Assembly: GCF_004010195.1 (NCBI RefSeq)
Contig: NC_057759.1
Location: forward strand, 4,530,906-4,594,905
Direction: 5' to 3'
DNA: 64,000 nucleotides
From: Chiloscyllium plagiosum
Lineage: Eukaryota
Of this stretch, positions 6,170 to 62,594 are shown one piece after another (the first letter of the stretch is position 1; every line of letters starts with the position of its first letter). The notes below the pieces were generated by a model, which saw only the letters and a list, made by a program, of their open reading frames with translations, searched no databases and was not told where the DNA came from. The position numbers and the translations under genes are program-made.

Positions 6170-6274
6170 GGTAGAATCCTGATGAAGGGCTTTTGCTCGA
6201 AACGTCGATTTTACTGCTCCTCGGATGCTTCCTGAACTGCTGCGCTTTTCCAGCACCATTCTAATATAGACTTA
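6170..6274 (+). mobile_element. Short Penelope-derived insertion carrying a hammerhead motif
   Basis: Flanked by 9-bp direct repeat ATCAATACA (6161-6169 / 6275-6283); similar to the terminal repeat at 18710-18840. Confidence 0.75.
6175..6210 (+). ncRNA. Minimal type I hammerhead ribozyme motif
   Basis: AAUC-CUGAUGA-A-GGGC(UUUU)GCUC-GAAA-C-GUC-GAUU: helix I AAUC/GAUU, stem II with one G-U pair, palindromic ACGU helix III. Confidence 0.8.
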
Positions 6275-13314: not shown

Positions 13315-13510
13315 TGATTTGGAGATGCCGATGATGGACTGGGCTGTACAAAGTTAAAAATCACACAACACCAGGTTATAGTCCAACAGGTTTAATTGAA
13401 AGCACTAGTTTTCAGAGACATCCACCTGATGAAGGAGCAGAGCTCCGAAAGCTAGTGCTTCCAATTAAACCTATTGGACTATAACCTGGTGTCGTGTGAT
13501 TTTTAACTTT
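13315..13510. mobile_element. Palindromic Penelope-derived insertion (family B)
   Basis: ~70-bp inverted arms (13348-13417 / 13443-13512); 12-bp TSD TTGTCTGAAGTA (13303-13314 / 13509-13520); matches the terminus of the Penelope element at 46025-46770. Confidence 0.85.
13423..13457 (+). ncRNA. Minimal hammerhead ribozyme motif (CUA cleavage triplet)
   Basis: CAC-CUGAUGA-A-GGAGC(AGA)GCUCC-GAAA-G-CUA-GUG; palindromic AGCU helix III. Confidence 0.8.
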
Positions 13511-13784
13511 GTCTGAAGTACATATTTGTAACCGAATTAACAAGTATTGATGGATTCTCCTCTGAACAACGTCCTCTTTTTCAATGCAAAACATACCCCG
13601 TTGTTTGTAAATCGGCGGGCTTTTCAAATTGGAAAGAAAGTTGTTGATGATTTGGCGCTGGCTTCAAGAGAAGGGAACGTGCCCTCTCTACTCACTGCCT
13701 CTTGGGAGCATATTAAACACCAGTAAATCTTTTTTTTCTGTTTGCTGCTATTTGCTCAAGTTACTCTCTAATATTTGATTATTA

Positions 13785-17113: not shown

Positions 17114-18090
17114 TTCCAGGAGCTACAAGCCCCGGTTGGGATGTGAGCCCTGATTGTCACCCCCGGGAAACAGACCCACGGGTAGATACATTACACACTG
17201 ATTTTTCAATTTCCAAAACTCCGCGTGAGTTCTGTTGGGTGGGAATGATGATTGAATGATTTAAATGAGGCTTTCTGCTGTCAGCTAGAGCTTTCAAAAT
17301 GAACGAGGTCAAACCAGAACCAGAACAGTTGCCGGACTGGAATAGTTAATGTGGAGCTTTTGCAATAAAGGAGCACGATATTAAAATAATATCTAAGAGC
17401 GGTGTTCGTTATTAATGCGCTCCCAGCAAAGAACGTTCATGAAATCCTGACAGGGCTGAATGAGGGCATTCGGCCCATCGAGTCTGAACCTTCCCTTTGA
17501 AGGGAATCTCGAATCCTTTAAATAGCTTCTCGACTCAGTACCCTAAAGAAAGGTTGGGTGAACTGGACTTTTATCATCGAAAAACACATTAACGACTAAG
17601 TACGAATGCGTTGTGTCTCTGATCTACATCGCGGCGGGACTTTCAAATGTGAAAGAAAACGGATGATGATTTGGCGCCATGTTTTCCCGCCAGCTTCCTC
17701 AGCAATGGCCATATAGTTACAGCTGGTGGGAACACCAAGGGAGACAATGAGGAGAGAGGAGATTTCATCCGGAATAAACATTCCCCGACCTAACATATTG
17801 TGTGAAAATTACATAACATTCCTGGGAACGTGCTAATCACTGTCGCTGAAAGCCGCGTGTCTTCCGACTAACTCCCCTCGGCTCGGCTAGATTCAAAGTA
17901 TATGTAATACCAACAGAATTGATTTAGTGCGGCGAGAACAAATTAATGCCATGCAATAGATGATGTATTGCATCCTCTGCACCCGATGTGGCCTTCGAGG
18001 AGAAAGTGAGGTCTGCAGATGCTGGAGATCAAAGTTGAAACTTTATTGCTGGAACAGCAAGCAGGTCAGGCAGCATCCAGGGAACAGGAG

Positions 18091-18125
18091 ATTCGACGTT
18101 TCGGGCACAGGCCCTTCTTCAGGAA
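18091..18125 (-). ncRNA. Minimal hammerhead ribozyme motif
   Basis: Reverse strand UUC-CUGAAGA-A-GGGC(CUGU)GCCC-GAAA-C-GUC-GAA. Confidence 0.8.
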
Positions 18126-18143
18126 GGGCCTGTGCCCTTCTTC

Positions 18144-18179
18144 ATTCCTGAAGAAGGGCCTGTGCCCGAAACGTCGAAT
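18144..18179 (+). ncRNA. Minimal hammerhead ribozyme motif
   Basis: AUUC-CUGAAGA-A-GGGC(CUGU)GCCC-GAAA-C-GUC-GAAU; perfect helices I and II. Confidence 0.85.
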
Positions 18180-19699
18180 CTCCTGTTCCCTGGATGCTGC
18201 CTGACCTGCTGTGCTGTTCCAGCAATAAAGTTTCAACCCGATGTGGCCTCCTCTATATTGGGGAGACAGGCCGCCTACTTGCGGAGCGTTTCAGAGAACA
18301 CCTCTGGGACACCCGGACCAACCAACCCAACCACCCTGTGGCTCAACACTTCAACTCCCCCTCCAACTCCACCAAGGATATGCAGGTCTTTGGACTCCTC
18401 CATCGCCACGACACGACGGTTGGAGGAAGAGCGTCTCATCTTCCGCCTAGGAACCCTCCAACCACAAGGGATGAACTCAGATTTCACCAGTTTCCTCATT
18501 TCCCCTCCCCCCACCCTTTTCTCAGTCAAATCCATCGAACTCAGCACCACCTTCCTAACCTGAAATCTTCTTGCTGACCTCTCCGCCCCCACCCCAGTCT
18601 GATCTATCACCCTCACCTTGACCTCTTTCCACCTATCGCATTTCCAACGCCCCTCCCCCAAGTCCCTCCTCCCTACCTTTTATCTTAGCCTGCTGGACAC
18701 ACTTTCCTCATTCCTGAAGAAGGGCTTATGCCCGAAGCGTCGATTCTCCTGTTTCCTGGATGCTGCCTGACCTCCTGCGCTGTTCCAGCAACACATTTTC
18801 AGCTCTGATCTCCAGCATCTGCAGACCTCACTTTCTCCTCAGAGTTTTTCTGGCAATCAACAATAGATTCATGGACATCATTAGACTCTTGGAATATTAT
18901 AGGCTGCCAGACAATTGAGCAACTTTGATAGAGAAGAGTTGAAAGTGACTGGAACTCATTGAGAACTTCAGTCACACAGCAGAAACTGGCATATATAGAT
19001 CAATTCCTAAATTCACCCATGGACACAGCAGAAATTGACATGTATACATCAAGTCCTAAACTCTCGTATGGAAATTGAGTCAATGTGTGTCGAATTCAAT
19101 CTGCTCTCTAACTGTGGAAAGGATGTTCTTTAGTCTGACTGCAGTAACATACCTGCTGTTTGTTAGAAGGAACTGATCACACTTAGCTTCGTGCTGAGCA
19201 CATATCACACTTTCTTGGTCCTTCAAGTAATTGTCTGGAGGAAGACAGAAGAGACATCATCTGTAAATCAACATTAAGTCAATTTAATAATCAGTAGGCT
19301 GTTTTTCCTTCAAGGCAGCAATTCCAACAGGACCACGGGGCTGATTCTCTTCTTGGCCTGAGCTGCTCTTTAGTGATTTATTCAAAGAAACTTACCAATT
19401 TACTGAGAAATAGATACGAACAACACCTCTACAAATGGGATAATCTGATGCCAGTAAGTGTCTGGATATGAAAGTTTCTTTATCTATCCATAGCTGGGAC
19501 AGACTGACAACTACACTCATATATTCACACAGCATAAACCGACAGGTGCAGATTGATAACTGAACTCGTGTATTCACACAGAGGAAGCTGCGAGCGACTG
19601 GTTAATAAATACATTTCGTACATTTTAAATAAATAGGATCAGTCCCTATGTGTTTCTCCGATGTAGATATGAGAGTTTAGTTATTCCAATTTTTTTTTC

Positions 19700-32755: not shown

Positions 32756-33933
32756 TGTAGGGGTGGCCTGTACCTGGCCAGAATAGAGGGGCTCATGTCT
32801 GTTAACACAAACTAACCTTTAAGAATTAAACAACAGGATGTGAATCTACGCCAAGCAGCCTACTCACAGTACGGCCGAATGATACCATTGAACAAGCCAC
32901 TGCGAGGACAGTAAAAATGACTCAGCCTGTTTCCATTTGAAACAGTTCTGACAAGCGGACCTAAGGTTGAATAAATAAGTAACTCCAGTCACATTAAGTG
33001 AACGGGTAATTGCCCCAGTTAATGAACAGCCATGAGGTGATAGTTACAGCTCATTAATCCCTGAAAACAGCTAAAGTTATCTTATAGTACTCAGTTTCTT
33101 GAAATAAGTTCGAATATTAAGTATTAGGTTCTCGTAAAGAGACATAACATCATCACAGTAGTTTTCAGCATAGAAATTAGGTGCATAATACCAAAGCATC
33201 AAGGGGAAAAGAAGCATTTAAACCTGGAAGTGAAGGTTAGTTAGCTTTAGGTAACTTCTCTTACACCCAGAACACAACAAATTGCTCATAGCCCATTAAT
33301 CACAACGTGCTAATAGTTAGGATAACTAAATTACTTTACACCTTGTACCTGAGATTTTATAACAGAAAATTACAAGTCTATGGCAAGTAAGTCAAAACAA
33401 ACTGTCCTTTTGTTTTTTCTTCATATATTCCCCACTGTGCTAATTATATCACTATAAAATGGAATACCATGAATAACAATATTCAAGCTGTCCTGAGAGA
33501 GAAGCTAGCCTGAGAGAAACCCAAAGGTGTACAGCAAATAACTTTGAAATGTGAATGAATAGGATGCATAGAAAGACTGCAAGGCGTAGAGATTACAGTG
33601 TCCTCTAAACTCTGAGAGGTTAGGGGATCCTGGAGCTGTCCATGGAAACGCCCATCATTGATGAGGTGCCTCATTGAATACAGTATGCAAACTAAGAGGG
33701 ACGAAAATCATAATCAAGTTGTATGTGATTGTTATCAGAAAATTTATAAATAATACTGCTTTTTATTGTAAAATCAGAGTGCATCATGAACTTCTCTTCT
33801 GAGGCCAGTCTCGGGAGAAGATCATTTGGCCCTCTCCCTGCACTAATCCATTTCTGCTTGAATAAACACCTACCACTTGCCTGAATGCTGCCTGCTGAGC
33901 CTTTCATCCTCGGTCGGGGGTTATGCTTCGACA
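32756..33933 (+). mobile_element. Solo LTR (~1.18 kb) with 5-bp TSD, inserted in a CR1 fragment
   Basis: TG...CA ends, TSD AAGGC (32751-32755 / 33934-33938), AATAAA at 33861; host CR1 sequence rejoins across it. Confidence 0.8.
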
Positions 33934-34354
33934 AAGGCCTTACAGAAGTCCATGTAAACCACGTCAACTGCACTACTCTCATCAAGATGTTTCATTGCCA
34001 GGACTGGAGTTTTAGGGAGAGGCTGTTGCTTTGTTCCATGGACTGTCGGAGAATGAGATGTGACCTTTGTACAGGTTGAGAAAATCATGATGGGCATATG
34101 TCTATAGCCAAGGTCTTTTTCCGAATGTGGGTGAATGCAAAAATAAAGGGCACAGGTTTGAATTGTGGAAAAAGATTTATAAAGGATCTATGGGGTTACT
34201 TAATCACAGAGGGTGGCGGTTGTATGAAATGAGCTACCAGAGGAGGTGGAGGTGGTGGGTACAATTACAACCTTTTATAGGCACCTGGATATATACAAGA
34301 ATAGGAACAGTTTAGAGGGATATGCACCAAGTGCTGGCAAGTGGGACTAGACGT

Positions 34355-34540
34355 GATGTGGAGGTACCAGTGTTGGTCTGGTGTGGACAAAGTTAAGAAT
34401 CACACAATGCCAGTTTCTCAGACAACAGGTTTATTTGGAAGCACTAGCTTTTCAGAGTGCTGCTCCTTCATTGCGCTGAAAGCTAGTGCTTCAACATAAA
34501 CCTGTTGTACTATAACCTGGTGTTGTGAGATCTCCAACTT
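34355..34540. mobile_element. Degenerate palindromic Penelope-derived insertion (family B)
   Basis: Same arms as 13315-13510 with decayed hammerhead core; duplicate at ~59180-59362. Confidence 0.7.
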
Positions 34541-36374
34541 AAATGGGACAAGGTCAGATTCGGATCTCTGGTCAGCATTAACAACTTGAACAAAAGGATC
34601 TGTTTCTGTGCTGTATAACTGTATGACTCTCTGAAGGCCACACCTTGATATCATTACTCCCAGTTAGACACTGCACTATTGGAGTTGCAAAGGTCCATTG
34701 CTTTTACCTCTTTGTCTCAGAAAAGATCTGTGCTGTTCTTCAGAGTCAATGTGTTGTGGTTTCACTTACCAGTGAATCTTTCAGACACAAACAGTCAAAG
34801 AAAATAAGGTCTTTCCCATTCACTTCAGGAAACATGAACTGAAAACTCTCTCGATTGATAATTGACTGTCCACTTTACAGCAAGCATTTAAACTGCTCAG
34901 TAACCCAATGCAGGAGGATTGAAGCAGGATCAAGTGAGTGTCGGCATCCTTCCTATATTATAATAACTATTCCGTTCAAAAATGTTTTTTATACATAAAA
35001 TCAGTGCATGAACACAATATCCCGAGTAGTCAACATTAAATTTTAGTTTCCAAGTTTTATCACTGGACAACATGACTCTAATCTGTTGACTGTCTATCAC
35101 ATCTGAGCAGAGTTTTGACGGACAATGAACCATATCCAAAGTCCCATTGAATAGCACAGACTGACAGGTAGAAAGTACTTTCTGAGTACACAAACCATAC
35201 AAGTAAATGGAAGAAACAAGATTAGTTCTGTACTCACAGAAGAAGAAACAGTTGCAGACTGCACCAGTTATTGTCCTTATTCATGTAAGGAACGAGTTGA
35301 AGGAAACTGATATAATTTCTGGACAGGACAAAGAGTGAGATGGTGCCAATACACAGTGAGTACATAATTACTTGCAGTGTACAGAAATACTGTCAGGTTA
35401 TTAGGTCTATAGGCAAAAATAGAAAAGTCATGACCTCAAAGATGTCACAGTTGGGAGAACTAGCATTTCATTAAACAAGTTATCCAGGAAGTGTGAGAGT
35501 GAAGTATGTCAGTCCCAGTTTACAAGTGAGCATCCTATAGGTATCACCTTGGTCAAAAAGTAAATTCTACTTGTTTATTAGAAAATACTGAACCTATTGC
35601 ATGTTCACAATGTATTTCACTTAAGTAGGTAAAGAAGGAAATAAAAATTCTGACTAATTATACATCCAATTATTTCACCATAGCTTGAACTTCCTGTCTG
35701 ATTCTCTGACTGTATGTAATTCATGTATCAATTCTTTTTATCCAGACTGGAGGAATTAAATAGCAGCCAAGCATCGGATTGAAACAAATATTGCAATTTA
35801 AGTTGTTTCCACAAAAAAAGTAGAACAAATCTCAGATGAAATAACTGAATAAATACTTTGTTTTCAAGTAGTCCAAAGGAAAATCAAACATTTACATGAA
35901 AAGGTACACATTCAGACAGATACCCAGAGATTATTGGGCACAAAATGAAGAAACTCTTATACTGGTCTTGTTATAAACATGTGAACAATAAATCCAAAGT
36001 ATACATTCAAACTAGAGACTGACCAATCCAGAAAACAACTTACAATCATAAGCAGTACATTTGAATAAAGGTTGTGGAAATTATCCAACCTGCTTTAGAG
36101 GGCCAGAGACTGACAATAGTATGAAAAGTCTCACTTTCATTTACAGTACAGACTTCCTCCAGTACAGGTAGAGGTCATTCGGCCCACAGGTTTGCAACAA
36201 CTTGCCAAAGCACATCCCACTCATCTGAGACCCCTACTCCCATAACCACATCTTTAACATAGTTAATCCACCTAGTCTGAACATTGCAGAATATTACAGG
36301 GCAATTTACCATGGCAAATCCAGCTAACCTGCTTGTTTGGACTGTGGAAGGATACTGGAATACCCAGAGGAAAC

Positions 36375-37035
36375 TAATATGTGAGTATAACTACCTTTAA
36401 GCCAGTTGAACAACTGGAGAGCACCAAGTGTTCTGAAAAAAGAGTAACCTTTGGTCAAACAACTCAAGTAGCTGCTTGCCTGGAGACAAAAACAAAATTG
36501 AATTCAACCAATCAGTTTAAATTATATCCCGAAAATACCAAATTCCAATCCAGTTTGAATTGAGTATATTGACAATCTTATAAGCCAATGACACAGTCCG
36601 ATGCTCTGGAGGTACAAGACCGGAAAACAATGAACAGTTGGGAGGAGAATTGCCAAGCCACCAGCATGTAAACAGACTGCCTGAAAAATAGCTCTCTTAA
36701 AGGTACCTTTATTGATCTGTGACCTGTGAAGCGCAATCCCCAAGAAGAACAAAAGACAGGAATACAGAAAAGAACTGAAAGCTGCCTAGTTTTGATGTAT
36801 GAAGTTTTGTTTTGTAAATCTTAATCAGGAGTTCTATTGGACTAGTATTATAGAAGATAGGTTCGAGGAAGGGGTTATAAATATTTGTTAGTTAATCACT
36901 CTCTGTTATACTTCTATAAATAAAGCTATTAATCGTTAACTAGTTCTTGGCCTATTGAATTTTCACAGATTACTGCATGGAATAAATCTTTTCTGTGTTG
37001 CTGGATTTAAATTAATAAAGAGGTTTGTTGTAACA
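36375..37035 (+). mobile_element. Solo LTR inserted in a - strand SINE
   Basis: Ends TGTAACA; AATAAA near the 3' end; SINE GAGGAAAC|..GCAGACA rejoins; better preserved TG..CA copy at 57136-57824. Confidence 0.7.
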
Positions 37036-37249
37036 AAATCAATGCAGACATGGGAGCATACCTGTGTGCAGTTTTCACAATGAGCCAAGGGTGGAATTGA
37101 AACTGGGTCCCTGGCACCAGTGTGCCACCATACTACCCTGACATGGATGGCAATAGATAAAATCTTTTGTATGTTGAGCAACAGATATTTGAAGTAAAAA
37201 GCGCTCCTGCAATTTGTGGCAAGTGTCATGTTAAACAGAGACAAATATG

Positions 37250-39116: not shown

Positions 39117-39416
39117 AGAAAAGTGGCAAACGCAGTGTTAAATCCAGCGCAGAGAGAGGACCAGAAACAGACATGCGGAGCTAGAAACACACCCTTCCAC
39201 TCCCACATCAGCACAACAACGAGCAAAAGGAAACCGAGTCAATACCACAGTCACTTTCTGTGTGACAGACACAAAACAAATCTCCCTCAGTCAGACTGAC
39301 AGGAACAAAATCACTATCCACTTCACATTTTGTTGCAGATTCTGACAGATCCACATTGGATCCTACTCTAACAATCACAGAGACTGAGTGTTTGGGAATG
39401 ATTCCGTGTAAACTAC

Positions 39417-39474
39417 CCAATCAGGCTTTCCCCCATCCCTCTTTGGCATTGATGACGTCGTCAGGCTATAAAAA
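39417..39474 (+). promoter_or_regulatory. H2B promoter: CCAAT (39417), CRE-like TGACGTCG (39453), TATAAAAA (39467)
   Basis: Motifs lie directly upstream of ATG 39527. Confidence 0.8.
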
Positions 39475-39526
39475 GGGAGCTCCGAGCCCGCTTTCCCTTA
39501 TTCTGTGTTTGACAGTGAGCGGCGCT

Positions 39527-39893
<367 letters not shown>

Positions 39894-39937
39894 AGGACCG
39901 CACTGCACTGAGACAAAACACACATCCACAACTCAAA

Positions 39938-39976
39938 GGCTCTTTTAAGAGCCACCCACAACTTTTGAGACAGCTG
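39938..39976 (+). terminator. Histone 3' stem-loop and putative U7 downstream element
   Basis: GGCTCTTTTAAGAGCC (39938-39953) followed by ACCCA, then purine-rich GAGACAGCTG. Confidence 0.93.
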
Positions 39977-40324
39977 AGCCATTTCTTTAACCATTTTGTT
40001 TTAGTTTGCATGTGATTTTATAAGTTTAAATTTTCGTACTACATTCGCTTTTATAATTGCTTTGCAATTTGATATTCTTGACGCGATATTTTTAGTCACA
40101 TTTGATTTTCAGTGCTTTGCAAATTGACTGGGGGTGGGGGGGAGCGACGTCATAAACAGTATCTTCCCTATGTGTAGAGAGAGAGAGCAGATTACACGTC
40201 AGGGGGTCATTTTTCATCTCATTTGTTCAACTTACTAAAAGCCCTGGTGGAATGTTATAACAGTTGTTTTCATCCTAGCAAACTAAAGCGAAGTGCCCAG
40301 TTTTCAGTCATACGGATTGATGTA

Positions 40325-41822: not shown

Positions 41823-42019
41823 AATTGGCAGGCTTTTCAAATTGGAAAGAAGGTGGTTGATGATTTGGCGCTGGTACTTTCCGCCCTCCTCCCCGTGCCC
41901 TCTCCGGATTGGGGAATGAGGCAGATATCTGATTGGGAATTGGAACAACATTAGGAGGGGCTGGACAATAGGACTAATCAGAAACGGCCGATCCACCATT
42001 CCTCCCAAAGGTATAAGAA
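41823..42019 (+). promoter_or_regulatory. H2A upstream region: E2F-consensus TTTGGCGC (41864-41871), inverted CCAAT boxes, TATAAGAA (42012)
   Basis: Motifs read directly; the two proximal CCAAT-like boxes look mutated (ACAATAG, CTAATCAG). Confidence 0.6.
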
Positions 42020-42100
42020 AGGCCGCAATGTGGATTGGGGTGGGGTGGGGGGGGGGGGGGGTGAGTGAGTGCAGAATTCTCTGTGAAAATGCTTGTGAGA

Positions 42101-42490
<390 letters not shown>

Positions 42491-42520
42491 AGAGACCATT
42501 CTTGAATCTGACAACCCAAA

Positions 42521-42562
42521 GGCTCTTTTAAGAGCCACTCACAGCATCTGTGAAAGGAGCTG
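42521..42562 (+). terminator. Histone 3' stem-loop and putative U7 downstream element
   Basis: GGCTCTTTTAAGAGCC at 42521-42536; GAAAGGAGCTG at ~42552. Confidence 0.93.
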
Positions 42563-46024: not shown

Positions 46025-46770
46025 AAACTGAACTAAGTTTAAAATCACACAACATCGGATTACAGTCCAACAGGTTTATTTGGAAGTACGAGCTTTCACA
46101 GCGCTGCTCCTTGATCAGGTAGCTATGAAACAGGATCATAAGACACAGAATTTATAGCTAAAGCTTACAGTGGCATGCAACTGAAATGATATATTGAACA
46201 AACCTAGATTATTGTTCAGTAATTCATCTTTTAGAACGGATTGCAGTTAATTAATATATACATCCCAGGACTTATTTTACGTCACATTGTCAAGATGACT
46301 TAAGATTTTATTTTAAAAAGGGTGACATCTCAGATCAGACAATGTATTAAAGGTGTAAGGTTAGAGTCTGACTGTATCCCAATCTTGAGTAAGACTGTTT
46401 CTATTTCCAAAGTAGGAATTTATAAAATATTACATGGATTGAGCAAAATAGAATGTTTCTGCAAATGCAAATTCACTCCAGTCACTTATGTGTGAGTGCA
46501 TGTGAGTGTGAGTGCATCTGAGAATGTGTGTGTTTGTGTATGCTTGGTAAAGTGTGTGTGTGAGTGTGATGGAGTATAAGCCATGGAGGGTGCGCGCATG
46601 GGTGTGTGTGCGCCCGCATGGGTGTGTGTGTGTGTGTGTGTATGCATACATATGAGAGGAAGCGTATGGAGGAGAGAGGTTGTGCATGTGAGAGAGTGTA
46701 CAGTGTATTGGGGACACCTGTAGTGTGACAGGAACCCTAGGTCCCGATTGAGGCCGTCCTCATGGGTTCT
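46025..46770 (-). mobile_element. Penelope-like 3' end (family B) with internal (TG)n tract
   Basis: KFRTHEDGLNRDLGFLSHY (GIY-YIG C-terminal GLN motif); terminus matches the 13315 element. Confidence 0.75.
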
Positions 46771-48119: not shown

Positions 48120-49260
48120 TCTGTTTCAAGAGTGTGGTGCTGGAAAAGCTGAGCAGGTCAGGCAGCATCTGAGAAGCAGGAAAATCAAGGTTTTGGACAA
48201 AAGCCCTTCATTAGGAATGAGGCTGGGAGTCTTGGAGGTGGAGATATGAGTTGGAGGGAATTGGGGCTGGTGATAATTTAGCTGAGACTGCAACAGATGG
48301 GGGTAAAGGTCGGAGTGGAGGGTGGTGCTGATAGATGGAAAGGAAGATGGTCAGATGTGATAGGTCATGAGGACGGTGCTAAGCTTGAGGTTTGGAACTG
48401 GGGTTAGGTGGTGAATGGGAAATGAGGAAACCGGTGAAGTCCACATTGATGTCATGGGGTTGGAGGGTCCTGAGGTGGAAGATGAGGCATTCTTCCTCCA
48501 GGTGTCAAGTGGTAAGGGAATGGCGATGGAGGAGGCCCAGGACCTGCATTCCTCAGCAGTGGGAGCGGTTAAGTGTTGGGCCATGGGTCGGTGGGGTTGG
48601 TGGGGTAGGTGTCTCAGATGTTCTCTGAAGCGCTCGGCGTCCCCAATGTCAAGGAGTTTGCATCGGGATCAGTGGATACAGTAAATGATGTGTGGAAGTG
48701 CAGGGGAAACATTGATGGATGTGGAAGGCTCCTTTGGGGCCTTGAACGGAGGTGAGGGGGGAGGTTTGGGCGCAGGTTTTGCAATTCCTGCTGTGGCATG
48801 GAAGGTGTCGGGACGGGACGGTGGGTTGCTGGGGGGCATGGACCTGACGAGGTAATCGTGGTTTGAGCAGTCTTTACGGAAAGCGGATGGGGTGGGGAGG
48901 GAAATATATCTCTGGTGATGGGATCCGTTCGTGGGTGGCGGAAATGGCGGAGGATGATGTGATGTATACAGAGGTTAGTGGGGTGGAATGTGAGGACCGG
49001 TGGGGGGGGGGGTTCTGTCCTTGTTCTGGTTGGAGGGGTGGGTTTCAAAGGCAGAGGGGCGTGAAATGGATGAAATGCACTGAAGGGCATCCTCAACCAC
49101 GTGGGAGGAGAAATTGCAGTCTTTAAAGCGGGAGGCCATCTGGCGTGTTCTGTGATGGAACTGGTCCTCCTGGGAACAGATACGGTGGCGGTAGTGGAAG
49201 AATTGGGATAACGGACATTTTTGCAGGAGGAGGTGTACTCCAGGTAGGTGTGGGAGTTGG
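48120..49260 (-). mobile_element. Degraded Penelope-like element (family A)
   Basis: SQF..YRHRICSQEDQF, PVLTFHP, and endonuclease region matching 18250-18840 in reverse. Confidence 0.8.
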
Positions 49261-50919
49261 TGGGTTTGTATCATCTGCAGTACTCATTTTCGCCTTTGTG
49301 TGTTTCAGTCCAACCAGAAACTTTGTTTTAGTTAGTTATGTACTACTTTTAAAATTTGTTGCAATTTACTACAAAGAGCTCTGCATTCCTCCTTCCTTTC
49401 CCTCGGATGTATCATGAAAAAAAAAGAAATCTTGCTGCAATTTTCACAATGCATCAATGGAATCTAATAACCCTTCAAAGCAGTGGAGAAAGGGGGAGAA
49501 AAAAGTCAAAATTAGTAGGTTTATAAAACTGTGCATTTTATTTTCAAGCAGAGCAGAAAGTGTTGATCATTCCATAAATTCAATTTGGCAGTTTACACAT
49601 TTTGTACTGCATGACAAAAAAAAAAGCCTTTTTCCTTTCCTCCTTCCTACTATAGAGCAACGCAAGAGTACAGCATGCATCATCACACGACAGAGCAATG
49701 TAATATTCTGTCTACATCAGAAAATAGAAGTGAACGAGTCTGTACAAGGAACATTATGGTCAGTCAGCTCCAATGCAGTTGAATTGTTTGTCACCCTTTT
49801 ACTTAGTTGCAAATGTTTACATAGATTGTTACTTCACCAAATTCATAAAAGAACATCACTATGCACTGAAACAAAAACTGATGGCTTTCTGACGACCAAC
49901 ATTTTATATCATTACTCTGTTAGATTCCGCATTGTACAAAATACAAAAAGTCTAATTGTTTTTCCTATCTTGACGCTGACGAACAGCATAGAATCCTTTC
50001 TGTTGCAGTGTGTTACGCTTTCACTTGCACATGATTCCTACAGGCACTAACAATTAAAGAACTTCGGCTGTTTCAACACAGGAGACATGAACTGAGATAC
50101 AGACTGGCAGCACAAGAGTAAACTCACTCTGACTCAGTCACTGGATGCTGAAAGGAAAAGAATAAATTTTGGCCTCTATTTCCAGATGTGAATTGACTCT
50201 CAACATCACTTATCACAGTTGAGGATATACAGTGCCCAGCAGTGCCTGATAAAGTCTACTATACATGCACACACGCACAATGTAAAAATAAACAGACTGA
50301 AATGCAACACAATTAAGCATCATCGAAAAGAGTTTATTAACAGAGTTTATGCTACATTCAGACACAAACCGCAACTGAACATAGGTGAATGAGATCCAAT
50401 GAACCCTCTCCAGAGCTTGAAGATCCTTCCTTAAGTAAGGTGACCAGAACTGAACACAAATGTGATCTGACCAACCAAGAACTACATTTATTAAAAGTCA
50501 GATGTCTACAGAATTGATGTCAAAGTGTGCTTTCCATATGGACACTGGCAATGAGTGGATGAAGTTCACATTCCCAACAATTACTGCAGAACTGATGTAT
50601 AAGAGAATGTCCCAGTACAGACACAATGGGCTGAATGGTCTGTTTCTGAGCTGTACCATATCAGTGATTCTGATTTTGGTGAGAAAGGAGATGACATGCT
50701 GTCGTGTTACATATTGGTACAAAAAATATCACACAGAAATGGACTGACATGCAGAATAAAAACACCAACAATGTCTGGGTACAAATTGAAACTAAATGTC
50801 TCAGTGGTACCACAGATCCCAGACTCTCTCCCCGAACAGGAAATGTGTGACCATAATTCAAAATGGTTCTCAGAATAAAGCAGTTTCCCTTCTGCCATTG
50901 AGGAACTACGTCCCCTCAA

Positions 50920-51208
50920 GAGATTACTTTACAGTGTGGAAACAGGCCCTTCGGCCCAACAAGTCCACACCGCCCCGCCGAAGCGCAAACCACCCAGACC
51001 CCTACATTTACCCCTTTACCTAACACTACGGGCAATTTAGCATGGCCAATTCACCTGACCTGCACATCTTTGGACTGTGGGAGGAAACCGGAGCACCCGG
51101 AGGAAACCCACGCCGACACGGGAAGAACGTGCAAACTCCACACAGTCAGTCGCCTGAGGTGGGAATTGAACCCGGGTCTCTGGCGCTGTGAAGCAGCAGT
51201 GCTAACCA
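50920..51208 (-). mobile_element. HE1/V-SINE-type SINE
   Basis: Well-preserved copy with CpGs largely retained. Confidence 0.9.
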
Positions 51209-51427: not shown

Positions 51428-51573
51428 GGGCGGCACGGTGGCACAGCAGTTAGCACTGCTGCCTCACAGCGCCAGAGGCCCGGGTTCAATTCCCGCCTCA
51501 GGCGACTGACTGTGTGGAGTTTGCACGTTCTCCCCGTGTTTCCTCTTTCAACACTGTAAGTAATCTAATCTAA
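51428..51573 (+). mobile_element. Internally deleted HE1/V-SINE-type SINE
   Basis: tRNA-like head joined directly to an ACACTGTAAGTAATCTAATCT tail. Confidence 0.85.
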
Positions 51574-52716: not shown

Positions 52717-52919
52717 GCTGAAAAATGTGTTGCTGGAAAAGCACAGCAGGTCAGGCAGCATCCAAGGAGCAGGAGAATCGACGTTTCGGGCATAAGCCCT
52801 TCTTCAGGTGCCCGAAACGTCGATTCTCCTGCTCCTTGGATGCTACCTGACCTGCTGCGCTTTTCCAGCAGCACATTTTTCAGCTCTGATCTCCAGCATC
52901 TGCAGTCCTCACTTTCTCC
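52717..52919. mobile_element. Palindromic Penelope-derived insertion (family A) with a hammerhead core on the - strand (52776-52810)
   Basis: Inverted arms around 52800; - strand CUGAAGA-A-GGGC(UUAU)GCCC-GAAACGUC. Confidence 0.85.
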
Positions 52920-54744: not shown

Positions 54745-55881
54745 TCGAAGTTTTTTCAATTAAAAAAAAACGAAGTTCAAACCGTTGCATTTTTGTTAAA
54801 ACGATAAAAAAAACGAATTTCAAATGAACGAAGTTTTTTTAAAGAAACGAAAACAGCCCCAGCCTGTTCAAACGGTCGGAGTTTTTTTTTAACAAAAATA
54901 ATCGAAGTCCAAATAATCGGAGTTTTTTTTTATAAAAGCCGAAAATAAACGAAGATAAAATGACACGAACCCAAAAAAAAACGAGGTTAAAGCAGTCGGA
55001 GTTTTTTTAAATCGAGAAGTAACTAAGTTAACACAACCCGAACCCGAAAATAAATGACGTTTAAGCAATCAAAGTTTTTTTTTAAACAAGAAAGCACCGG
55101 AAAATAACAAATCTCGGGACATCGATTTTTTTTTTACTTCTGCAGTCAACGAAGCTCGGGAGAAAGAATTATTTTAAAACTAAAAATTAACAAAGCTTGG
55201 GAATTCAGATTTCAACACTCCCCTCAGAGTTCAGCAATTTTCGAAGACCAATGTGGGATTTAGATAAAACACTGTTACTTAGAGTCATAGCGATGTACAA
55301 GCATGGAAACAGACCCTTTGGTCCAACCCGTCCATGCCGACCAGATATCCAAATCCAATCTAGTCCCACCTGCCAACACCCGGCCCATATTCCTCCGAAC
55401 CCTTCCTATTCATATACACATCCAAATGCCTCTTAAATGGTGCAATTGTACGAGCCTCCACCACATCCTCGGGCAGCTCATTCCATACACGTACTACCCT
55501 CTGCGTGAAAAAGTTGTCCCTTAGGTCTCATTTATATCTTTCCCCTCTCACCCCAAACCTCTAGTTCTGGACTCCCCGACCCCAGGGAAAACACTTTGTC
55601 TATTTATCCTATACATGCCCCTCATAATTTTGTAAACCTCTATAAGGTCACCCCTCAGCCTCCGACGCTCCAGGGAAAACAGCCCCAGCCTGTTCAGCTT
55701 CTCCCTGTAGCTTAGATCCTCCAACCCTGGCAACATCCTTGTAAATCTTTTCTGAACCTTTTCAAGTTTCACAACATCTTTCTGATAGGAAGGAGATCAG
55801 AATTGCACGCAGTATTCCAACAGTGGCCTAACCAATGTCCTGTACAGCCGCAACATGACTGCCCAACTCCTGTACTCAATA

Positions 55882-56107
55882 GGTAAAAACAATGACTGCA
55901 GATGCTGGAAACCAGATTCTGGATCAGTGGTGCTGGAAGAGCACAGCAATTCAGGCAGCATCCGACGAGCATCAAAATCTACGTTTCGGGCAAAAGCCCT
56001 TCATCAGGCATATTCCTGATGAAGGGCTTTTGCCCGAAACGTCGATTTTGATGCTCGTCGGATGCTGCCTGAATTGCTGTGCTCTTCCAGCACCACTGAT
56101 CCAGAAT
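55882..56107. mobile_element. Near-perfect palindromic Penelope-derived insertion
   Basis: 94-bp arms 55915-56008 / 56015-56108 with one mismatch; TSD TCCTGTACTCAATA (55868-55881 / 56107-56120). Confidence 0.9.
56012..56047 (+). ncRNA. Minimal hammerhead ribozyme motif
   Basis: AUUC-CUGAUGA-A-GGGC(UUUU)GCCC-GAAA-C-GUC-GAUU; mirror copy on the - strand with a GUA triplet. Confidence 0.8.
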
Positions 56108-56524
56108 CCTGTACTCAATACTCCGACCAATAAAGGGAAGCATACCAAATGCCTTCTTCACTACCTGAAGTCTCTCTACCTGCGACTCCACTTTCAATGA
56201 GCTATGAACCTGCACTCCAAGGTCTCTTTGTTCAGCAACACTCCCTAGGACCTTATCATTAAGTGAATAAGTCCTGCTAAGATTTGCTTTCCCAAAATGC
56301 AGCACCTCGCACTTATCTGAATTAAACTCCATCTGCCACTTCTCAGCCGATTGGCCCATCTGGTCCAGATCCTGTTGTAATCTGAGGTAACCCTCTTCAC
56401 TGTCCACTACACCTCCAATTCTGGTGTAATCTGCAAACTTACTAACTATACCTCTTATGCTTGCATCCAAATCCTTTATGCAAATGACAAAAAGTAGAGG
56501 GCCCAGCACCGATCCTTGTGGCAC

Positions 56525-57024: not shown

Positions 57025-57135
57025 CCATGTCAGGGTAACATGGTGGCACACTGGTGCAGGGACCCAGTTTCAATTCCAGCCTTGGCTCATTGTACAAATT
57101 GCACACAGACATGTTCCCCATGTCTGCATTGGTTT

Positions 57136-57824
57136 TGATACGACATGGGGTAAACCCCTTTGCTAATTTAAAACCAGCAACACTGAAAAGATTTATCTCA
57201 TGCAGTAATCTGTGAAAATGTGACAGGCCTAGAACCAATTAAAATAAAGATTAACAGCTTTATTTATTAAAATATAACAGAGAGTGATTAACTAACAAGT
57301 ATTTACAACTCCTTCCTCTAACCTATCTTCTATAATACTCGTCCGAGAGAAGTCCTGATAAAGATTTACAAAACAAAACAGTTTATCTCAAAACCAGGCA
57401 GCTTTTGGTACTTTTCTGTATTCGGGTTGTCTTTTGTTCTTCTTGAAGATTGTGCTTCACAGGTCACTGATCGATAAAGTACCTTTCAGAGAGCTAATTT
57501 TCAGGGAGTCTTTTTACATGCTTGGTGGCTTGGCAATTCGCCTCCTAACTGTTCAATTTTACCCAGTCTTATACCTCCAGAGCTTCACATGTATCATTGG
57601 CTTTTAAGATTGTTAATATACTCAATTCAGACTGGATTGGAATTTGATATTTTCGGGATTCAAACATTTGGTTGAATTCAAATATTTTTGTCTCCAGGCA
57701 AACAACTACTTGGGTTGTTTGACTAAATGTTACTTTGTCTTTTTTCGGAACACTTGGTGATGTCCAGTAGTTCTACTGGCTGATAACTTTCTTAAAGGTA
57801 CAGTACACCCACATCTTCATAACA
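57136..57824 (-). mobile_element. Solo LTR (duplicate of 36375-37035)
   Basis: - strand TGTTATG...CGTATCA with flanks GAAC/AAAC, inside a SINE. Confidence 0.75.
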
Positions 57825-58362
57825 GTTCCCTCTTGGTGCTCTAGTTTCCTTTCACAGTCCAAACATGTGCAAGTTAGCTGGATTAGTCATTGTAAATTGC
57901 CCTGCAATATTCAGCAATGCTCAGACTAGGTGGGTTAACTATGGTAAAGATGTGGTTATGGGGGTAGGGTGGGGTCTATATCTGGGTGGGATGTGCTTTG
58001 GCGAGTTGTTGCAGGCCGATGGGCTGAATGACCTCTATCTATACTGGAGAAATTCTACGTACTGTAAATGAAAATGAGACTTTTTAGACTATTGTCAGTC
58101 TCTCACACTCTAAAGCAGTTTAGATAATTTCCACAACTTTTATTCGATGGTAAGTTCTGTGAGTGCAGAACTCATCTTGTTTCTTCCATTTACTTATACG
58201 GTTTGTGTATTTGTGAAGTATTCTCTACCTGTCAGTCTGTGCTATTCAATAGGCCTGTGAATACAGCTTATTGTCCTTCAAAACTCTGCTCAGATGTGAC
58301 AGACTGTGAACAGATGAGAGCCATATTGACTAGTGAGGAACTTGGAAACTAACATTTAATTA

Positions 58363-58741
58363 GGAGAAAGTGAGGACTGCAGGTGCTGAAGACCAGAGTT
58401 GAAAAATGTGATGCTGGAAAAACACATCAGGCCAGGCAGCATCCGAGGAGAGTGTGGAAACAGACCCTTCAGCCCAACAGGTCCACACCGACCCTCTGAA
58501 GAGTAACGCACCCAAGCATCTTTTCCCTCTGAACTACGCACCTAATTGACAACTTAAGCATGGCCAATTCACCTGACCTGCACATCTTTGGACCGTGGGA
58601 GGACACCGGAGCACCCGGAGGAAACCCACGCAGACACAGGGAGAATGTGCAAACTCCACGCAAATAGTCACCCGAAGTTGCAATCGAACCCGGGACTCTG
58701 ATGCTGTGAGGCAACAGTGCCAACTACTGAGCCACTGTGCC
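58363..58741 (-). mobile_element. Penelope terminal fragment abutting a HE1-type SINE, specific to the right arm
   Basis: Absent at the paralogous position ~34990-35040. Confidence 0.8.
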
Positions 58742-59795
58742 AAAAGATTTTTGAAAGAAACAGTTGTTATGATACAGGAAGGATGCCCACACTCGATTAA
58801 TCCTGCTTCAATCTTCCTGCATGGTGTTACTGAGCAGTTTAAATGTTTGCTGTCAAGTGAACAGCCGGTTAGCAAAGGAGAGAGTTTTCAGTTCATGTTT
58901 CCTGAAGTGAATGGGAAAGATCTTATTTTCTTTGACTGTATCTGTAGGATTCACAGACAAGTGAAACCTGAACACAATGTGCTGGTTCTGTGCTGTTCTT
59001 CAGAGTCAAGGAGGTAAAAGCAATGGACTTTTGCAACTCCGATAGTGCGGAGTCTAACTGGGAATAATCAAGGTGTAGCCTTTAGAGAGTCACACAGATT
59101 TACAGCACAGAAACAGATCCTTTGGTGCAAGCTGTTATTGCTGACCAGAGATCCTGATCTGACCTAGTCCCATTTAAATTAAGATCTCACGACACCAGGT
59201 TATAGTACAACAGGTTTATGTGGGAGCACTAGCTTTCAGAGCGATGAAGGAGCAGTGCACTGAAAGCTAGTGCTTTCAAATAAACCTGTTGTCTGAGAAA
59301 CTGGTGTTGTGTGATTTGTAACATTGTCCACCCCAGTGCAATGCTGGCACCTCAACATCATGACTAGTCCCATTTGCCAGCACTTGGTGCATATCCCTCG
59401 AAATTGTTCCTATTCTTGTACATATCCAGGTGCCTTTAAAAGGTTGGAATTGTACCTACCATCTCCACTTCCTCTGGTAGCTCATTCCATACAAGCAACA
59501 CCCTCTATGTGATAAACTAACACCTTTTTAAATCCTTTCTCCTCAAATTAAACCTGTGCCCTCCATTTTTGCACGCACCCATACTCGGAAAAAGACCTTG
59601 GCTATCACCCTATCATGTCCCTCATGATTTTCACAACCTGTACAAAGGTCACACCTCATTCTCCGACAGTCCAGGGAACAAAGCAACAGCCTGTTCAGCC
59701 TTTCCTTATAACTCAAAACCCCCAGTCCTGGCAATGAAGCATCCTGATGAGAGGAGAGCAGTTGATGTGGTTTACATGCACTTCAGTCAGGCCTT

Positions 59796-61004
59796 TGTCG
59801 GAGCATAACCCCCAACCGGGGATGAAAGACTCAGCAGGCAGGCAGTATTCAGGCAAGTGGTAGGAGGTTCGTGCAGGCAGACGGCCTCCGAGAGGACAAA
59901 AGACTGTCCTCCGAGACTGGCCTCAGAACAGAGGTCTATGACACACTCTGATTTTACAATAAAAAGCAATATTTTTAATAAACTTTCTGATAACAATCAC
60001 ATACAACTTTATTACGATGTTCCTCTCTCTTACTTTGCATATCCTATTCAATGAGATACCTAATCAATGATGGGCATTTCTATGGACTGCCCCAGGATCC
60101 CCTGACCTCTCAGAGTTTAGCGGACATTGTAATCTCTTGGCTTTGTGATCTTTCTATGCATCCTATCATTCTTATTCCAAAGTTATGTGCGAAAAACCTT
60201 CAGGTTTCTCTCAGGCTAGCTTGTCTCTCAGGACAGTTTGAATGCTGTTATTCATTGTATTCCATTTTATCAAGTTCAATTGCTCCTCTGATATAATAGG
60301 GCAGTGGGGAATATATGAGGAAAAAACAAAGGACAGTTTGATTTGACTTACTTGCCATAGACTTGTAATTTTAATTTTTATTATAAAAAGTTAGTTACAA
60401 AGTGTGAAGTAATTTATTTGCCCCAACTGTTAGCACTTTGTGATTAATGGGCTGTGAGCAATCTATTGTGATCTGGGCATAAGAGAAGTCATTACCTAAA
60501 GTAACTAACCTTCACTTCCAGGTTTAAATGCTTCTTTTCCCCTTTCTGCTTTAGTATTATGCACCTAGTTTTCATGCTGGAAACTGCCGAGTTAATGCTA
60601 CGTCTCTTTACGAGAACCTAATTCTTAATATTCCAACTTATTTCAAGAAACTACATACTTTAAGATACCTTTAGCTGTTTTGGGCATTAATGGGCTGTAA
60701 CTAGCACCTGGTGTCTGTTCAGTAACTGGGACAATTACCCTTTCATTTAATGTGGCTGGAGTTACTCATTTACCGGACCTTCGGTCTGCTTGTCAGAACT
60801 GTTTCAAATTGGAACAGGCTGGGTCCTTGGAATGGCTTTATCAATGGTATCATTTTACCTTATTGTGTGAGTGCGCTGTAAAGCTTAGATTCTGCCTGCC
60901 ATTCTGTTTCACAAACTGCTGTTTAATTCTACTTTACACTTACATACCAGTTTGTGTTAACAGACATGGGCTACTCTATCTGGCCTGGTACAGGCCACCC
61001 CGAA
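59796..61004 (-). mobile_element. Solo LTR (duplicate of 32756-33933)
   Basis: Flanked by GCCTT at 59791-59795 and 61005-61009. Confidence 0.78.
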
Positions 61005-62594
61005 GCCTTTGACAAAGTCCCATATAAAAGACTGGTCCAAGATTGGCACTTGGAGTCTTAAGCAAACTGGATCTGAAATGAGCTTGCAGACAGGATGCAA
61101 ACTATGATGGTGGAAGGTTGTGTTTGTGATTGGAAGCCTGTGACCAGTGGTGTATCACAGGGATCAGTGCTGGGACCCTTGCTGCTTGTTATGTAAATAT
61201 TAACAATTGGATGTGAATGTATAATTAGTATGCCTGCAGATGACTTTTTCATGTGGAAGTATTAAATGTTTCAGTGCAGTCTTGGTGTACAAAGGGCCTG
61301 TTTTGTGCTGTATTGTTCTTTGCTCTATGACATGAAAGTTGGTGGTGTTGTTGACAGTGAGGGGGATGGTCTCAGGCTACAGTATGAGGACTTTGGGCAC
61401 TGCAATGACAGATGGAATTTAATCCTGATAAATGTGAGGTAATGCATTTTGGGAGGTCTAATAAGGGAAAGAATTACACAATGAAGGATTGGTCCCGAGG
61501 TAATACTGAGGAACAAAGGTACCTTGGTGTACAAGTCTATAGATCACAGAAGTGGTCAGCACAGGCAGACAGGCTGCTGAAGGCAGCATACAGAATGCTT
61601 CCCGGAGCTGTCAAATATAAGAGCAAGGAAGTCTTATTCCACATTTATAAAACAGATCAAATACTGTGTGCAGTTCTGATTGCCACACAATTAGAAGGAT
61701 GGGATCGACTGGAGAGGATGCAGTGGGTTGGAAAGTCTCTGTTAAAAGGGGAGACCGTATGAGCTGGGTTTGGTTTCCTTGGAGCAGAGGACATTGAGGG
61801 AGGATCTGACTGAGATATACTAAATTATGCAAAATGCAGACAGAGTAGATTGTGAGAATCTTTCTCCCGTTAGTAGATGTGCCGAAGACCAGAGGGTAAA
61901 AGTTGAAGTTGTGGGGAAAGCAGTTTAGAGGATATCTGAGAAAAATATTTTGACCTAGCTGGTGGGTAAAGTTTGTAATATGCTGCCTGAGAGTGTGATG
62001 GAATACTCTCACAGCATTTAAGCAGCATCAGGATATGACCTAATGAAACCAGGGCATAGTCAGCTCTTGGCCAAGTGCAGATAAATAGGATGAATGCAGT
62101 TTTTGGTGTTTGTTGGACATCATGGACATGGTAGGCTGAAGGGTCTGTTTCTATGCTGTATGACTCTATATCGCTATAACATCCTTGTAACTCTTTTCTG
62201 CAGCATCTAAAGTTTAACAACATCCTTCCTGGAGAAGGATGATGAGCGTTGTATGCAATCTCATAAGAATGGCATCACTTAATGTCCTGTACAGCCACCA
62301 GATGACATCCCAACTCCTACACGAAATGTTCCGACGAAGGAAGGAAAGCTTGCCAAACGCTTTCTTCACCGTCCTGTCTACCTGTGGCTCTACTTTCAAG
62401 AAGATCTCCCAGGTGCAATGGTTCAAGCTGCAACCCTCGGTCTCTTTGTTCAGCAACACTTGCCAAGGCCCCACCATTAAGTGTATAAGTCCTGCCCTGG
62501 TTTGTCTTAATCAAAATCTAACACCTCACATGTATCTAAATGTATCTGTATCTGTCACGTCTTGGCCCACTGACCTACATGATCAATTGGTGAG

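What the first reader, a model, noticed from the sequence alone, without database searches (positions are those of the whole stretch)
55868..56120. Short palindromic hammerhead-ribozyme insertions sharing one architecture across several Penelope families
Seen: at least five independent ~200-240 bp insertions (13315-13510, 17995-18235, 34355-34540 with its duplicate at ~59180-59362, 52717-52919, 55882-56107) from sequence-distinct families share one design: a ~35-nt unpaired element terminus, then 70-94 bp inverted arms whose axis lies at or just 5' of a hammerhead core. Three have 12-14 bp TSDs. This copy has 93/94 matched arms and a hammerhead on each strand. Established: Penelope-like elements carry minimal hammerheads in their terminal repeats and often show inverted 5' repeats. 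Inference: the fixed inversion point suggests either that reverse transcription switches template at the ribozyme fold, or that these are non-autonomous ribozyme-bearing hairpin mini-elements mobilised as units. Transcription from either side would give a long hairpin RNA.
Basis: partly seen in the sequence, partly recalled or inferred. Interest (0 to 1): 0.8.

Follow-up and report, generated by a model that had tools for sequence, protein, structure and literature searches.

The report
Penelope stubs end at RNA start
This 226-base mirror-image insertion is two stumps of the ribozyme-bearing end of a known Penelope-type jumping gene joined head to head in a shark-like genome, likely made when both cut strands of the target DNA copied the first 95-130 letters of the element's capped RNA, so it is probably a footprint of how these elements integrate rather than a new ribozyme mini-element.

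Summary
The palindrome is real: 97-bp arms, 2 mismatches, no spacer, 33-nt one-sided tail, 14-bp target duplication, and a minimal hammerhead on each strand. The five insertions come from two families, not five. Family A is a Neptune-type Penelope-like element (PLE). Each insertion is a tail-bearing end plus a tail-less end, both 5'-truncated: the published 'inverted pLTR + tail + TSD' layout with no ORF. All 10 inner breakpoints lie at -8..+18 of the CUGA core and none at the cut site (+28). All five centres differ, so nothing shows unit mobilisation. In public contigs from two organisms, non-inverted copies pile up at the same -4/-3 edge, preceded by a G the template lacks. Some joints fit a tail-only arm inverted against the body. 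Best reading (0.6): run-off at a capped RNA start plus priming from both target ends, not fold-back at the ribozyme. No genome was held, so there is no census of inversion points. This scan had already reported the same reading many times, in this genome and in other sharks.

The parts
55868..55881 (.). Left copy of the 14-bp target-site duplication
   Evidence: Exact repeat; the empty site is seen in other copies of the host repeat at 24261-24410 and 8212-8367
55882..55914 (-). 33-nt 'tail', present on one arm only; its outer end is the likely first RT start
   Evidence: the tail end matches the pile of 3' ends at 18838-18840 of the long copy
55915..56011 (-). Tail-side arm: element end read on the minus strand, 5' end at -4 of the CUGA core
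55980..56007 (-). Minimal hammerhead core on the minus strand (triplet GUA because of the 55980 difference)
56012..56108 (+). Tail-less arm, 5' end at -4; outer end at the likely second RT start, sharing 2 nt with the TSD
56016..56043 (+). Minimal hammerhead core: CUGAUGA 56016-56022, helix II 56024-56035, predicted cut after 56043
56107..56120 (.). Right copy of the TSD
17996..18237 (.). Family A palindrome, 14-bp TSD, inserted into the GIY-YIG coding part of an older family A copy; inner ends -3 and -4, with a helix II hop in the centre
17963..18839 (+). Long non-inverted family A copy: GIY-YIG C-terminus, 3' UTR, hammerhead (CUGA at 18714), tail; reference for both read lays
52717..52919 (.). 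Family A palindrome, inner ends -1 and +16, no TSD found
13315..13512 (.). Family B palindrome, 12-bp TSD, inner ends about -8 (uncertain) and +18
34354..34540 (.). Family B palindrome, inner ends +4 and about +16, no intact CUGA box
59176..59363 (.). Duplicate of the 34354 insertion inside an inverted segmental duplication; 12-bp TSD
6174..6258 (+). Non-inverted tail-less family A stub, which reads as a G followed by the -4 start
48125..49270 (-). Long decayed family A copy with RT thumb region, CX4CxxC linker and GIY-YIG
58363..58450 (-). Tail-bearing family A stub truncated downstream of the hammerhead
46028..46200 (-). Non-inverted tail-less family B copy that appears to run upstream of the hammerhead

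Best explanation
The insertion is two 5'-truncated copies of the terminal repeat of a Neptune-type Penelope-like element joined head to head, likely written at integration from both cut target strands off an uncut, probably capped RNA whose first base is predicted to be the -4 edge of the hammerhead. Shown: the tail-plus-arm and tail-less-arm anatomy, the TSD, the family, and the pile of 5' ends at -4/-3. Inferred steps: (1) The pLTR's internal promoter starts RNA at -4. (2) The endonuclease nicks both strands about 12-14 nt apart. (3) One target end primes RT at the tail end (about +126), the other at the internal site (about +90) with 2-4 nt of microhomology. (4) Each cDNA runs off the RNA 5' end after 95-130 nt. 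(5) The two cDNA ends are joined with 0-22 nt of loss or short template hops, so every centre is unique. The ribozyme would mark the spot only because it begins where the RNA begins. In the finished palindrome it is predicted to be silenced by the hairpin.
For: Window: 10 of 10 inner breakpoints in 5 independent events lie at -8..+18, 0 of 10 at +28/+29, and all centres differ. Tail-less arms stop at one family-specific site, sharing 2, 2 and 4 nt with the TSD in the 3 of 3 unduplicated TSD-bearing palindromes. Contigs: the largest listed 5' loose-end rows with long, unlike flanks (agreement 0.31-0.37, median length 134-255) are 18710 = -4 (X3 195, X9 217, X15 41 contigs) and 18711 (X3 162, X15 24). 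True 3' ends give the same signature. No row is listed at the cut site; the smallest listed rows are 99, 106 and 23. The consensus letter next to 18710 is G in 3 of 3 runs with data, where the template has C. 7 of the 8 listed joints into 18710 end in G (P = 5e-4 if independent). An extra G marks capping in full-length L1 insertions (PMC11702581, passages). 4 of the 5 listed opposite-strand joints link 18705-18719 to 18803-18809; their longest short sides (37, 36, 32, 31) never exceed the distance to the tail end and equal it in 3 of 4, as L1-style twin priming on one RNA would give. In vitro the Anolis PLE protein cuts and extends both strands, starts RT at two sites that bound the tail, and uses uncut RNA (PMC11167929, parts 1-2 of 4). 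D. virilis Penelope has an internal promoter in its pLTR (PMC2377424, passages).
Against: No genome was held, so there is no census of inversion points. The contig piles are non-inverted ends, and only 1 listed joint (18713/18747, -1/+34) looks like a palindrome centre. The lay tables show only top rows (442 loose-end rows hidden; 159 joints and 2052 loose-end rows hidden), so no fraction can be given. The direction of the tail-boundary joints is inferred; they could instead be tail-less copies inserted into the ATT site of another copy. No RNA 5' end was mapped: X21 showed no place where many molecules begin or end, and X22 laid 0 reads. The focal copy shows no clean extra G at its centre. 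1 of the 8 joints ends in A, and the rows may share ancestry. The G could belong to a subfamily with a different upstream sequence, although the loose consensus is AT-rich and unlike the C-rich 3' UTR. Family B was not tested outside the window. The two arms share subfamily variants, which fold-back would also give.
Confidence: 0.6

Rival explanations
1. Fold-back or self-priming: one cDNA stalls at the hammerhead, snaps back and copies itself, or an antisense RNA self-primes (the proposal in PMC3846280).
For: Arms are 98% identical in the focal copy. The 17996 centre holds a sense-to-antisense hop through helix II with 2-4 nt overlaps. Breakpoints do cluster at the ribozyme.
Against: It does not explain why the second arm always stops at the tail boundary with target microhomology, why non-inverted copies end at -4 with a G, or the joints whose inverted arm seems to be tail only. 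The focal centre has no loop. A structural stall would be expected at the 3' foot of a helix, not at the 5' strand of helix I (general RT knowledge).
Confidence: 0.17
2. Two-ended priming is right, but the -4 boundary is not a capped start: it is the head-to-tail junction of tandem or circular templates, or the point where subfamilies diverge upstream.
For: 8 of the 24 listed between-letter rows join downstream positions back to 18710, so head-to-tail units exist. The two long copies are only 68% alike upstream, so the depth step is confounded.
Against: Loose ends at 18710 are long, AT-rich and unlike each other, which fits unique flanks rather than one other subfamily. A processed or circular RNA would be expected to break at the cut site (+28), not at -4.
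Confidence: 0.13
3. The palindromes are non-autonomous hairpin mini-elements (retrozyme-like or MITE-like) mobilised as units.
For: Similar size and layout, TSDs, and one centre seen twice (34355/59180).
Against: That pair is a segmental duplication. The five independent centres all differ. Both cores are buried in the hairpin: P(unpaired) at most 0.001, 28 kcal/mol to open. One event has no intact core. Described animal retrozymes are tandem repeats (10.64898/2026.07.22.740005, part 1 and passages).
Confidence: 0.05
4. Hammerhead self-cleavage defines the template's 5' end and thus the axis.
For: The core is conserved and helix II is kept in 7 of 7 aligned family A copies.
Against: 0 of 10 window breakpoints lie at +28/+29 and all lie upstream of it. 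No listed contig pile at 18742. Cleavage is not needed for insertion in vitro (PMC11167929).
Confidence: 0.05

Closest known systems
Insertion units of endonuclease-bearing PLEs with inverted pLTR, one-sided 30-40-bp tail and TSD (Pen2a_Av, PMC3846280; Fig. 2 of PMC8557442; D. virilis Penelope, PMC2377424)
   Same: Head-to-head inverted 5'-truncated copy, tail on one end only, short TSD, palindrome at the junction.
   Different: No ORF and no direct pLTR pair: only 95-130 nt per arm. Inner ends pile at the hammerhead's 5' edge, which the passages read do not describe.
Minimal hammerheads of metazoan PLEs (PMC4209133)
   Same: CUGANGA, extra base before helix II, G-C first pair, minimal palindromic helix III, short helix I. 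That paper already notes dual motifs 100-700 bp apart on opposite strands in Schistosoma.
   Different: Here the two cores are about 10 nt apart, back to back, and predicted to be sequestered.
Anolis Poseidon PAc in vitro (PMC11167929)
   Same: Both strands cut and extended, two internal RT starts bounding the tail, uncut RNA used.
   Different: Family A has the Neptune-type linker. The parts read do not derive palindromes from the two starts.
L1 twin priming and cap-derived G (PMC11702581)
   Same: Discrete 12-18-bp TSD, second priming by microhomology, extra G at a full-length 5' end.
   Different: In L1 the two cDNAs cover adjacent parts of the RNA. Here they usually overlap almost fully, giving a palindrome.
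Animal non-LTR retrozymes (10.64898/2026.07.22.740005)
   Same: ORF-less, derived from PLE pLTRs, type I hammerhead.
   Different: Those are head-to-tail tandem arrays. These are head-to-head pairs with unique centres.

Membership tests
EN+ Penelope-like element | RT plus C-terminal GIY-YIG ORF linked to the same terminal repeat | tested here: met
   The family A end follows a GIY-YIG fragment in two long copies. The 57-aa piece scores Pfam GIY-YIG at E 0.031, below cut-off, and is 59% identical to P0003, a 902-aa RVT_1 + GIY-YIG protein. Not tested for family B.
EN+ Penelope-like element | Inverted 5'-truncated copy and a 30-40-bp tail at one end | tested here: met
   5 of 5 palindromes
EN+ Penelope-like element | Short TSD | tested here: met
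   Exact 12-14 bp at 4 of 5 events, none at 52717
EN+ Penelope-like element | Tandem or partial-tandem pLTR-ORF-pLTR full unit | not testable with these tools
   No full element in the window and no genome held; head-to-tail joints into 18710 exist
Neptune clade | CX2-5CxxC linker between RT and EN (PMC8557442) | tested here: met
   CX4CxxC in the 48125-49270 copy and in P0002 and P0003; no tree was built
Minimal type I hammerhead | Conserved core, helix II, NUH triplet | tested here: met
   4-bp helix II kept in 7 of 7, two one-sided changes, no two-sided change; Rfam gives no hammerhead hit
Minimal type I hammerhead | Helix I of 4-5 bp | tested here: inconclusive
   By eye, 4 bp in the 17996 subfamily but a U-U mismatch in the focal copy; RNAalifold did not predict it
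Minimal type I hammerhead | Self-cleavage | not testable with these tools
   No end pile in X21 reads, a library ill suited to show one; folding predicts sequestration in the palindrome
Non-LTR retrozyme | Head-to-tail tandem units, each with a hammerhead | tested here: not met
   Arms are head to head
MITE-like unit element | Identical whole-unit copies at unrelated sites with terminal inverted repeats | tested here: not met
   Five different centres, asymmetric ends; window only

The most novel reading that the evidence does not exclude
PLE reverse transcriptase makes 'strong-stop-like' run-off cDNAs from the capped first 95-130 nt of its RNA, primed from both ends of one staggered cut at two fixed RNA sites. 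The tail-only inverted joints are the L1-like case where the first cDNA stops at the second primer. The shark palindromes would then be a very large natural record that explains PLE head-to-head repeats without an antisense self-priming step and places the transcription start on the first base of the ribozyme.
Probability: 0.55. Interest if true: 0.65.

Novelty: new variant of a known kind. Interest (0 to 1): 0.4.

Why it matters
How PLEs make head-to-head inverted ends is open: PMC3846280 proposed self-priming on an antisense template and left it unresolved, and the parts of PMC11167929 read stop short of it. These stubs give sharp tests: a capped start at -4, two primed target ends, and independence from ribozyme cleavage. 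They may also be a source of perfect 95-bp hairpin RNA in shark transcripts. The layout itself is known, and this scan has reported the same reading repeatedly.

Tried and rejected
No whole genome was held. Exact family A patterns found nothing in viral, metagenome or prokaryote contigs. Rfam gave only histone stem-loops and sub-threshold miRNA hits on the hairpins. No RNA holder was listed for the stretch. X22 laid 0 reads. The raw-read depth step across the hammerhead edge in X21 (267, 729, 1408, 1670 per 21-nt bin, against about 40-130 in the coding and UTR part upstream of 18640) was not used as evidence, because subfamilies diverge upstream (68%). A-to-I editing: X21 lists more A>G places (55) than DNA runs X3 and X8 (18, 17), but also more of most other changes, on a multi-copy stretch without matched DNA; inconclusive. 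Circular and small RNAs could not be tested. A 3' splice site at -4 was rejected, since no AG precedes it. An assembly artefact is unlikely given the TSD, the tail asymmetry and the arm mismatches, but no reads were laid on the focal copy, which lies about 400 bp from a gap. Pfam on the 149-aa frame running through the insertion gave only a sub-threshold DUF hit. Literature: searches found no paper stating the run-off plus two-ended model; the library lacks most subscription papers, and no supplements were read.

Full report
OBSERVATION. The focal insertion spans 55882-56107. Arms 55915-56011 and 56012-56108 differ at 2 of 97 positions and have no spacer. A 33-nt tail sits outside the left arm. 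A 14-bp exact direct repeat brackets the unit, and the two flanks match uninterrupted copies of the host repeat elsewhere in the window, so it is a true TSD (the host looks like a CR1-type LINE, a label I recall and did not test). A CUGAUGA-helix II-GAAAC core lies on each strand. Nearby inverted 20-mers number 126 against 0 in each of 20 shuffles. The nearest named protein relative of the family's coding part is from Chiloscyllium punctatum at 93%, so the genome is shark-like; the species was not determined.

FAMILIES. 34355 and 59180 lie in an inverted segmental duplication of about 6 kb and are one event. The window also has five non-inverted copies (6174, 17963-18839, 48125-49270, 58363, 46028). 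In two of them the family A end follows a GIY-YIG coding fragment. It scores only E 0.031 in Pfam, below cut-off, but is 59% identical to a 902-aa RT + GIY-YIG protein. The CX4CxxC linker marks Neptune type (criterion from PMC8557442, passages). Family B has no coding part in the window; I treat it as a PLE from its layout and core only.

ANATOMY. Every palindrome is one end with the tail and one end without, joined at their 5' truncations. With the C of CUGA as +1, the inner ends are -4/-4 (55882), -3/-4 (17996), -1/+16 (52717), about -8/+18 (13315; the -8 letters may be filler) and +4/about +16 (34355). So 10 of 10 lie within 26 nt and 0 of 10 at the predicted cut (+28). All five centres differ. 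The 17996 centre contains a sense piece (+7..+20) and an antisense piece (+2..+12) linked through helix II, which shows that hops at the fold can occur during joining. The tail-less ends share 2, 2 and 4 nt with the TSD start in the three unduplicated TSD-bearing copies.

OUTSIDE THE WINDOW. No genome was held and three collection scans were empty. I laid 7 different runs of the 24 listed on the long family A copy, where -4 is 18710 and the cut follows 18741. In one search the 5' loose ends with long, unlike flanks are 18710 (195 contigs in X3, 217 in X9, 41 in X15) and 18711 (162 in X3, 24 in X15). The other listed 5' rows (18757) are short, alike and due to reference mismatches. Six rows per run are shown and 442 are hidden; none shown is at the cut site, and the smallest shown are 99, 106 and 23. 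X3 and X9 carry different organism codes. These ends join unique flanks, so they are not inversions: the boundary is shared by inverted and plain copies. The consensus letter adjoining 18710 is G in all three runs with data, while the reference has C. Of the 24 shown rows of between-letters (192 hidden), 8 lead into 18710 and 7 of those end in G (P = 5e-4 if independent; they may not be). In one search, 5 of 15 shown joints change strand (159 hidden); 4 link 18705-18719 with 18803-18809, with longest short sides 31, 36, 32 and 37 against distances to the tail end of 31, 36, 35 and 37. I read these as a tail-only arm inverted against a body that starts at the hammerhead edge; the direction is inferred, and insertion of a tail-less copy into another copy's ATT site is an alternative. 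One shown joint (18713/18747, in X3 and X9) looks like a palindrome centre at -1/+34. RNA reads of X21 lie on both strands, 91% run on into unlike sequence, and show no sharp start or end. X22 laid nothing.

MECHANISM. The simplest account joins three published facts to these data. The Anolis PLE protein cuts and extends both strands, starts RT at two internal sites that bound the tail, and does not need ribozyme cleavage (PMC11167929, parts 1-2 of 4). Penelope has an internal promoter in its pLTR (PMC2377424, passages). An extra G marks copying of a cap, and twin priming leaves a 12-18-bp TSD with microhomology in L1 (PMC11702581, passages). If RT starts in the 5' pLTR of a transcript, it runs off after 95 or 130 nt; two such cDNAs on the two target ends, joined with some loss, give this unit. 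The six bases around -4 resemble an initiator consensus (recalled, not tested). The run-off and cap idea came from earlier notes of this scan; the contig evidence above is my partial test of it. Confidence 0.6. Fold-back (0.17), a non-cap boundary (0.13), unit mobilisation (0.05) and cleavage-defined ends (0.05) are the rivals.

RNA CONSEQUENCE. A read-through transcript in either direction folds at -192 kcal/mol, with the core paired (P unpaired at most 0.001) and 28 kcal/mol needed to open it. The antisense arm is transcribed first in both directions, so the ribozymes in the palindrome are probably idle. Palindromic repeats are heavy ADAR targets in frog, and Penelope is heavily edited in lizard (PMC5625713, passages); editing here was inconclusive.

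WHAT IS KNOWN. The inverted pLTR, one-sided tail and TSD are the 'typical Penelope structure' (PMC3846280, passages; PMC8557442, passages; PMC8969392, passages). Opposite-strand hammerhead pairs were noted in Schistosoma (PMC4209133, parts 1-2 of 4). Animal retrozymes are tandem (10.64898/2026.07.22.740005, part 1 of 5 and passages). Nine searches found no paper giving the run-off plus two-ended model; supplements and subscription papers were not seen. The scan itself holds many notes with this reading, in this genome and others; nothing was listed near this window.

VERDICT. A real feature with a known layout and an ordinary identity. Its value is as a testable clue to PLE integration. Interest 0.4.

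Noticed in passing
window 18815-18845 and loose ends at 18838-18839: The family A tail ends in a branch-like motif and pyrimidine run, and the loose-end consensus after it begins AG or CAG in most listed rows across the four runs, like a 3' splice acceptor at the first RT start. No canonical donor was seen in the 130 nt upstream, and family B's tail does not look like this.
   Followed up: partly
window 17981-18249: A family A palindrome inserted into the GIY-YIG coding part of an older copy of its own family, splitting the CxxC before the YIG motif.
   Followed up: yes
window 31234-37146 vs 57025-62586: Inverted segmental duplication, 82-85% identical, on either side of the histone genes.
   Followed up: partly
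window 39266-40015 and 41978-42561: H2B-like and H2A-like histone genes (recognised by eye) with frameshifts, each followed by a histone 3' stem-loop (Rfam Histone3).
   Followed up: no
window 6165-6215: The 11 bases before the core pair with the bases after the cut site, giving a long helix I; this may be a subfamily trait, a templated patch or chance.
   Followed up: partly
window 34390-34540 and 59184-59315: The tail arm and tail-less arm differ by the same multi-base block in both duplicates, so the difference predates the duplication; it could be an old mutation or two different RNA templates.
   Followed up: no
window 51116-51206 and 51449-51539: A 96% inverted pair of a short repeat 242 nt apart, SINE-like by recall and unrelated to the Penelope ends.
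   Followed up: no
window 56044-56108: In the focal subfamily the bases just after the cut site pair with the bases ending exactly at the tail-less end, a stem that may position the second RT start.
   Followed up: no
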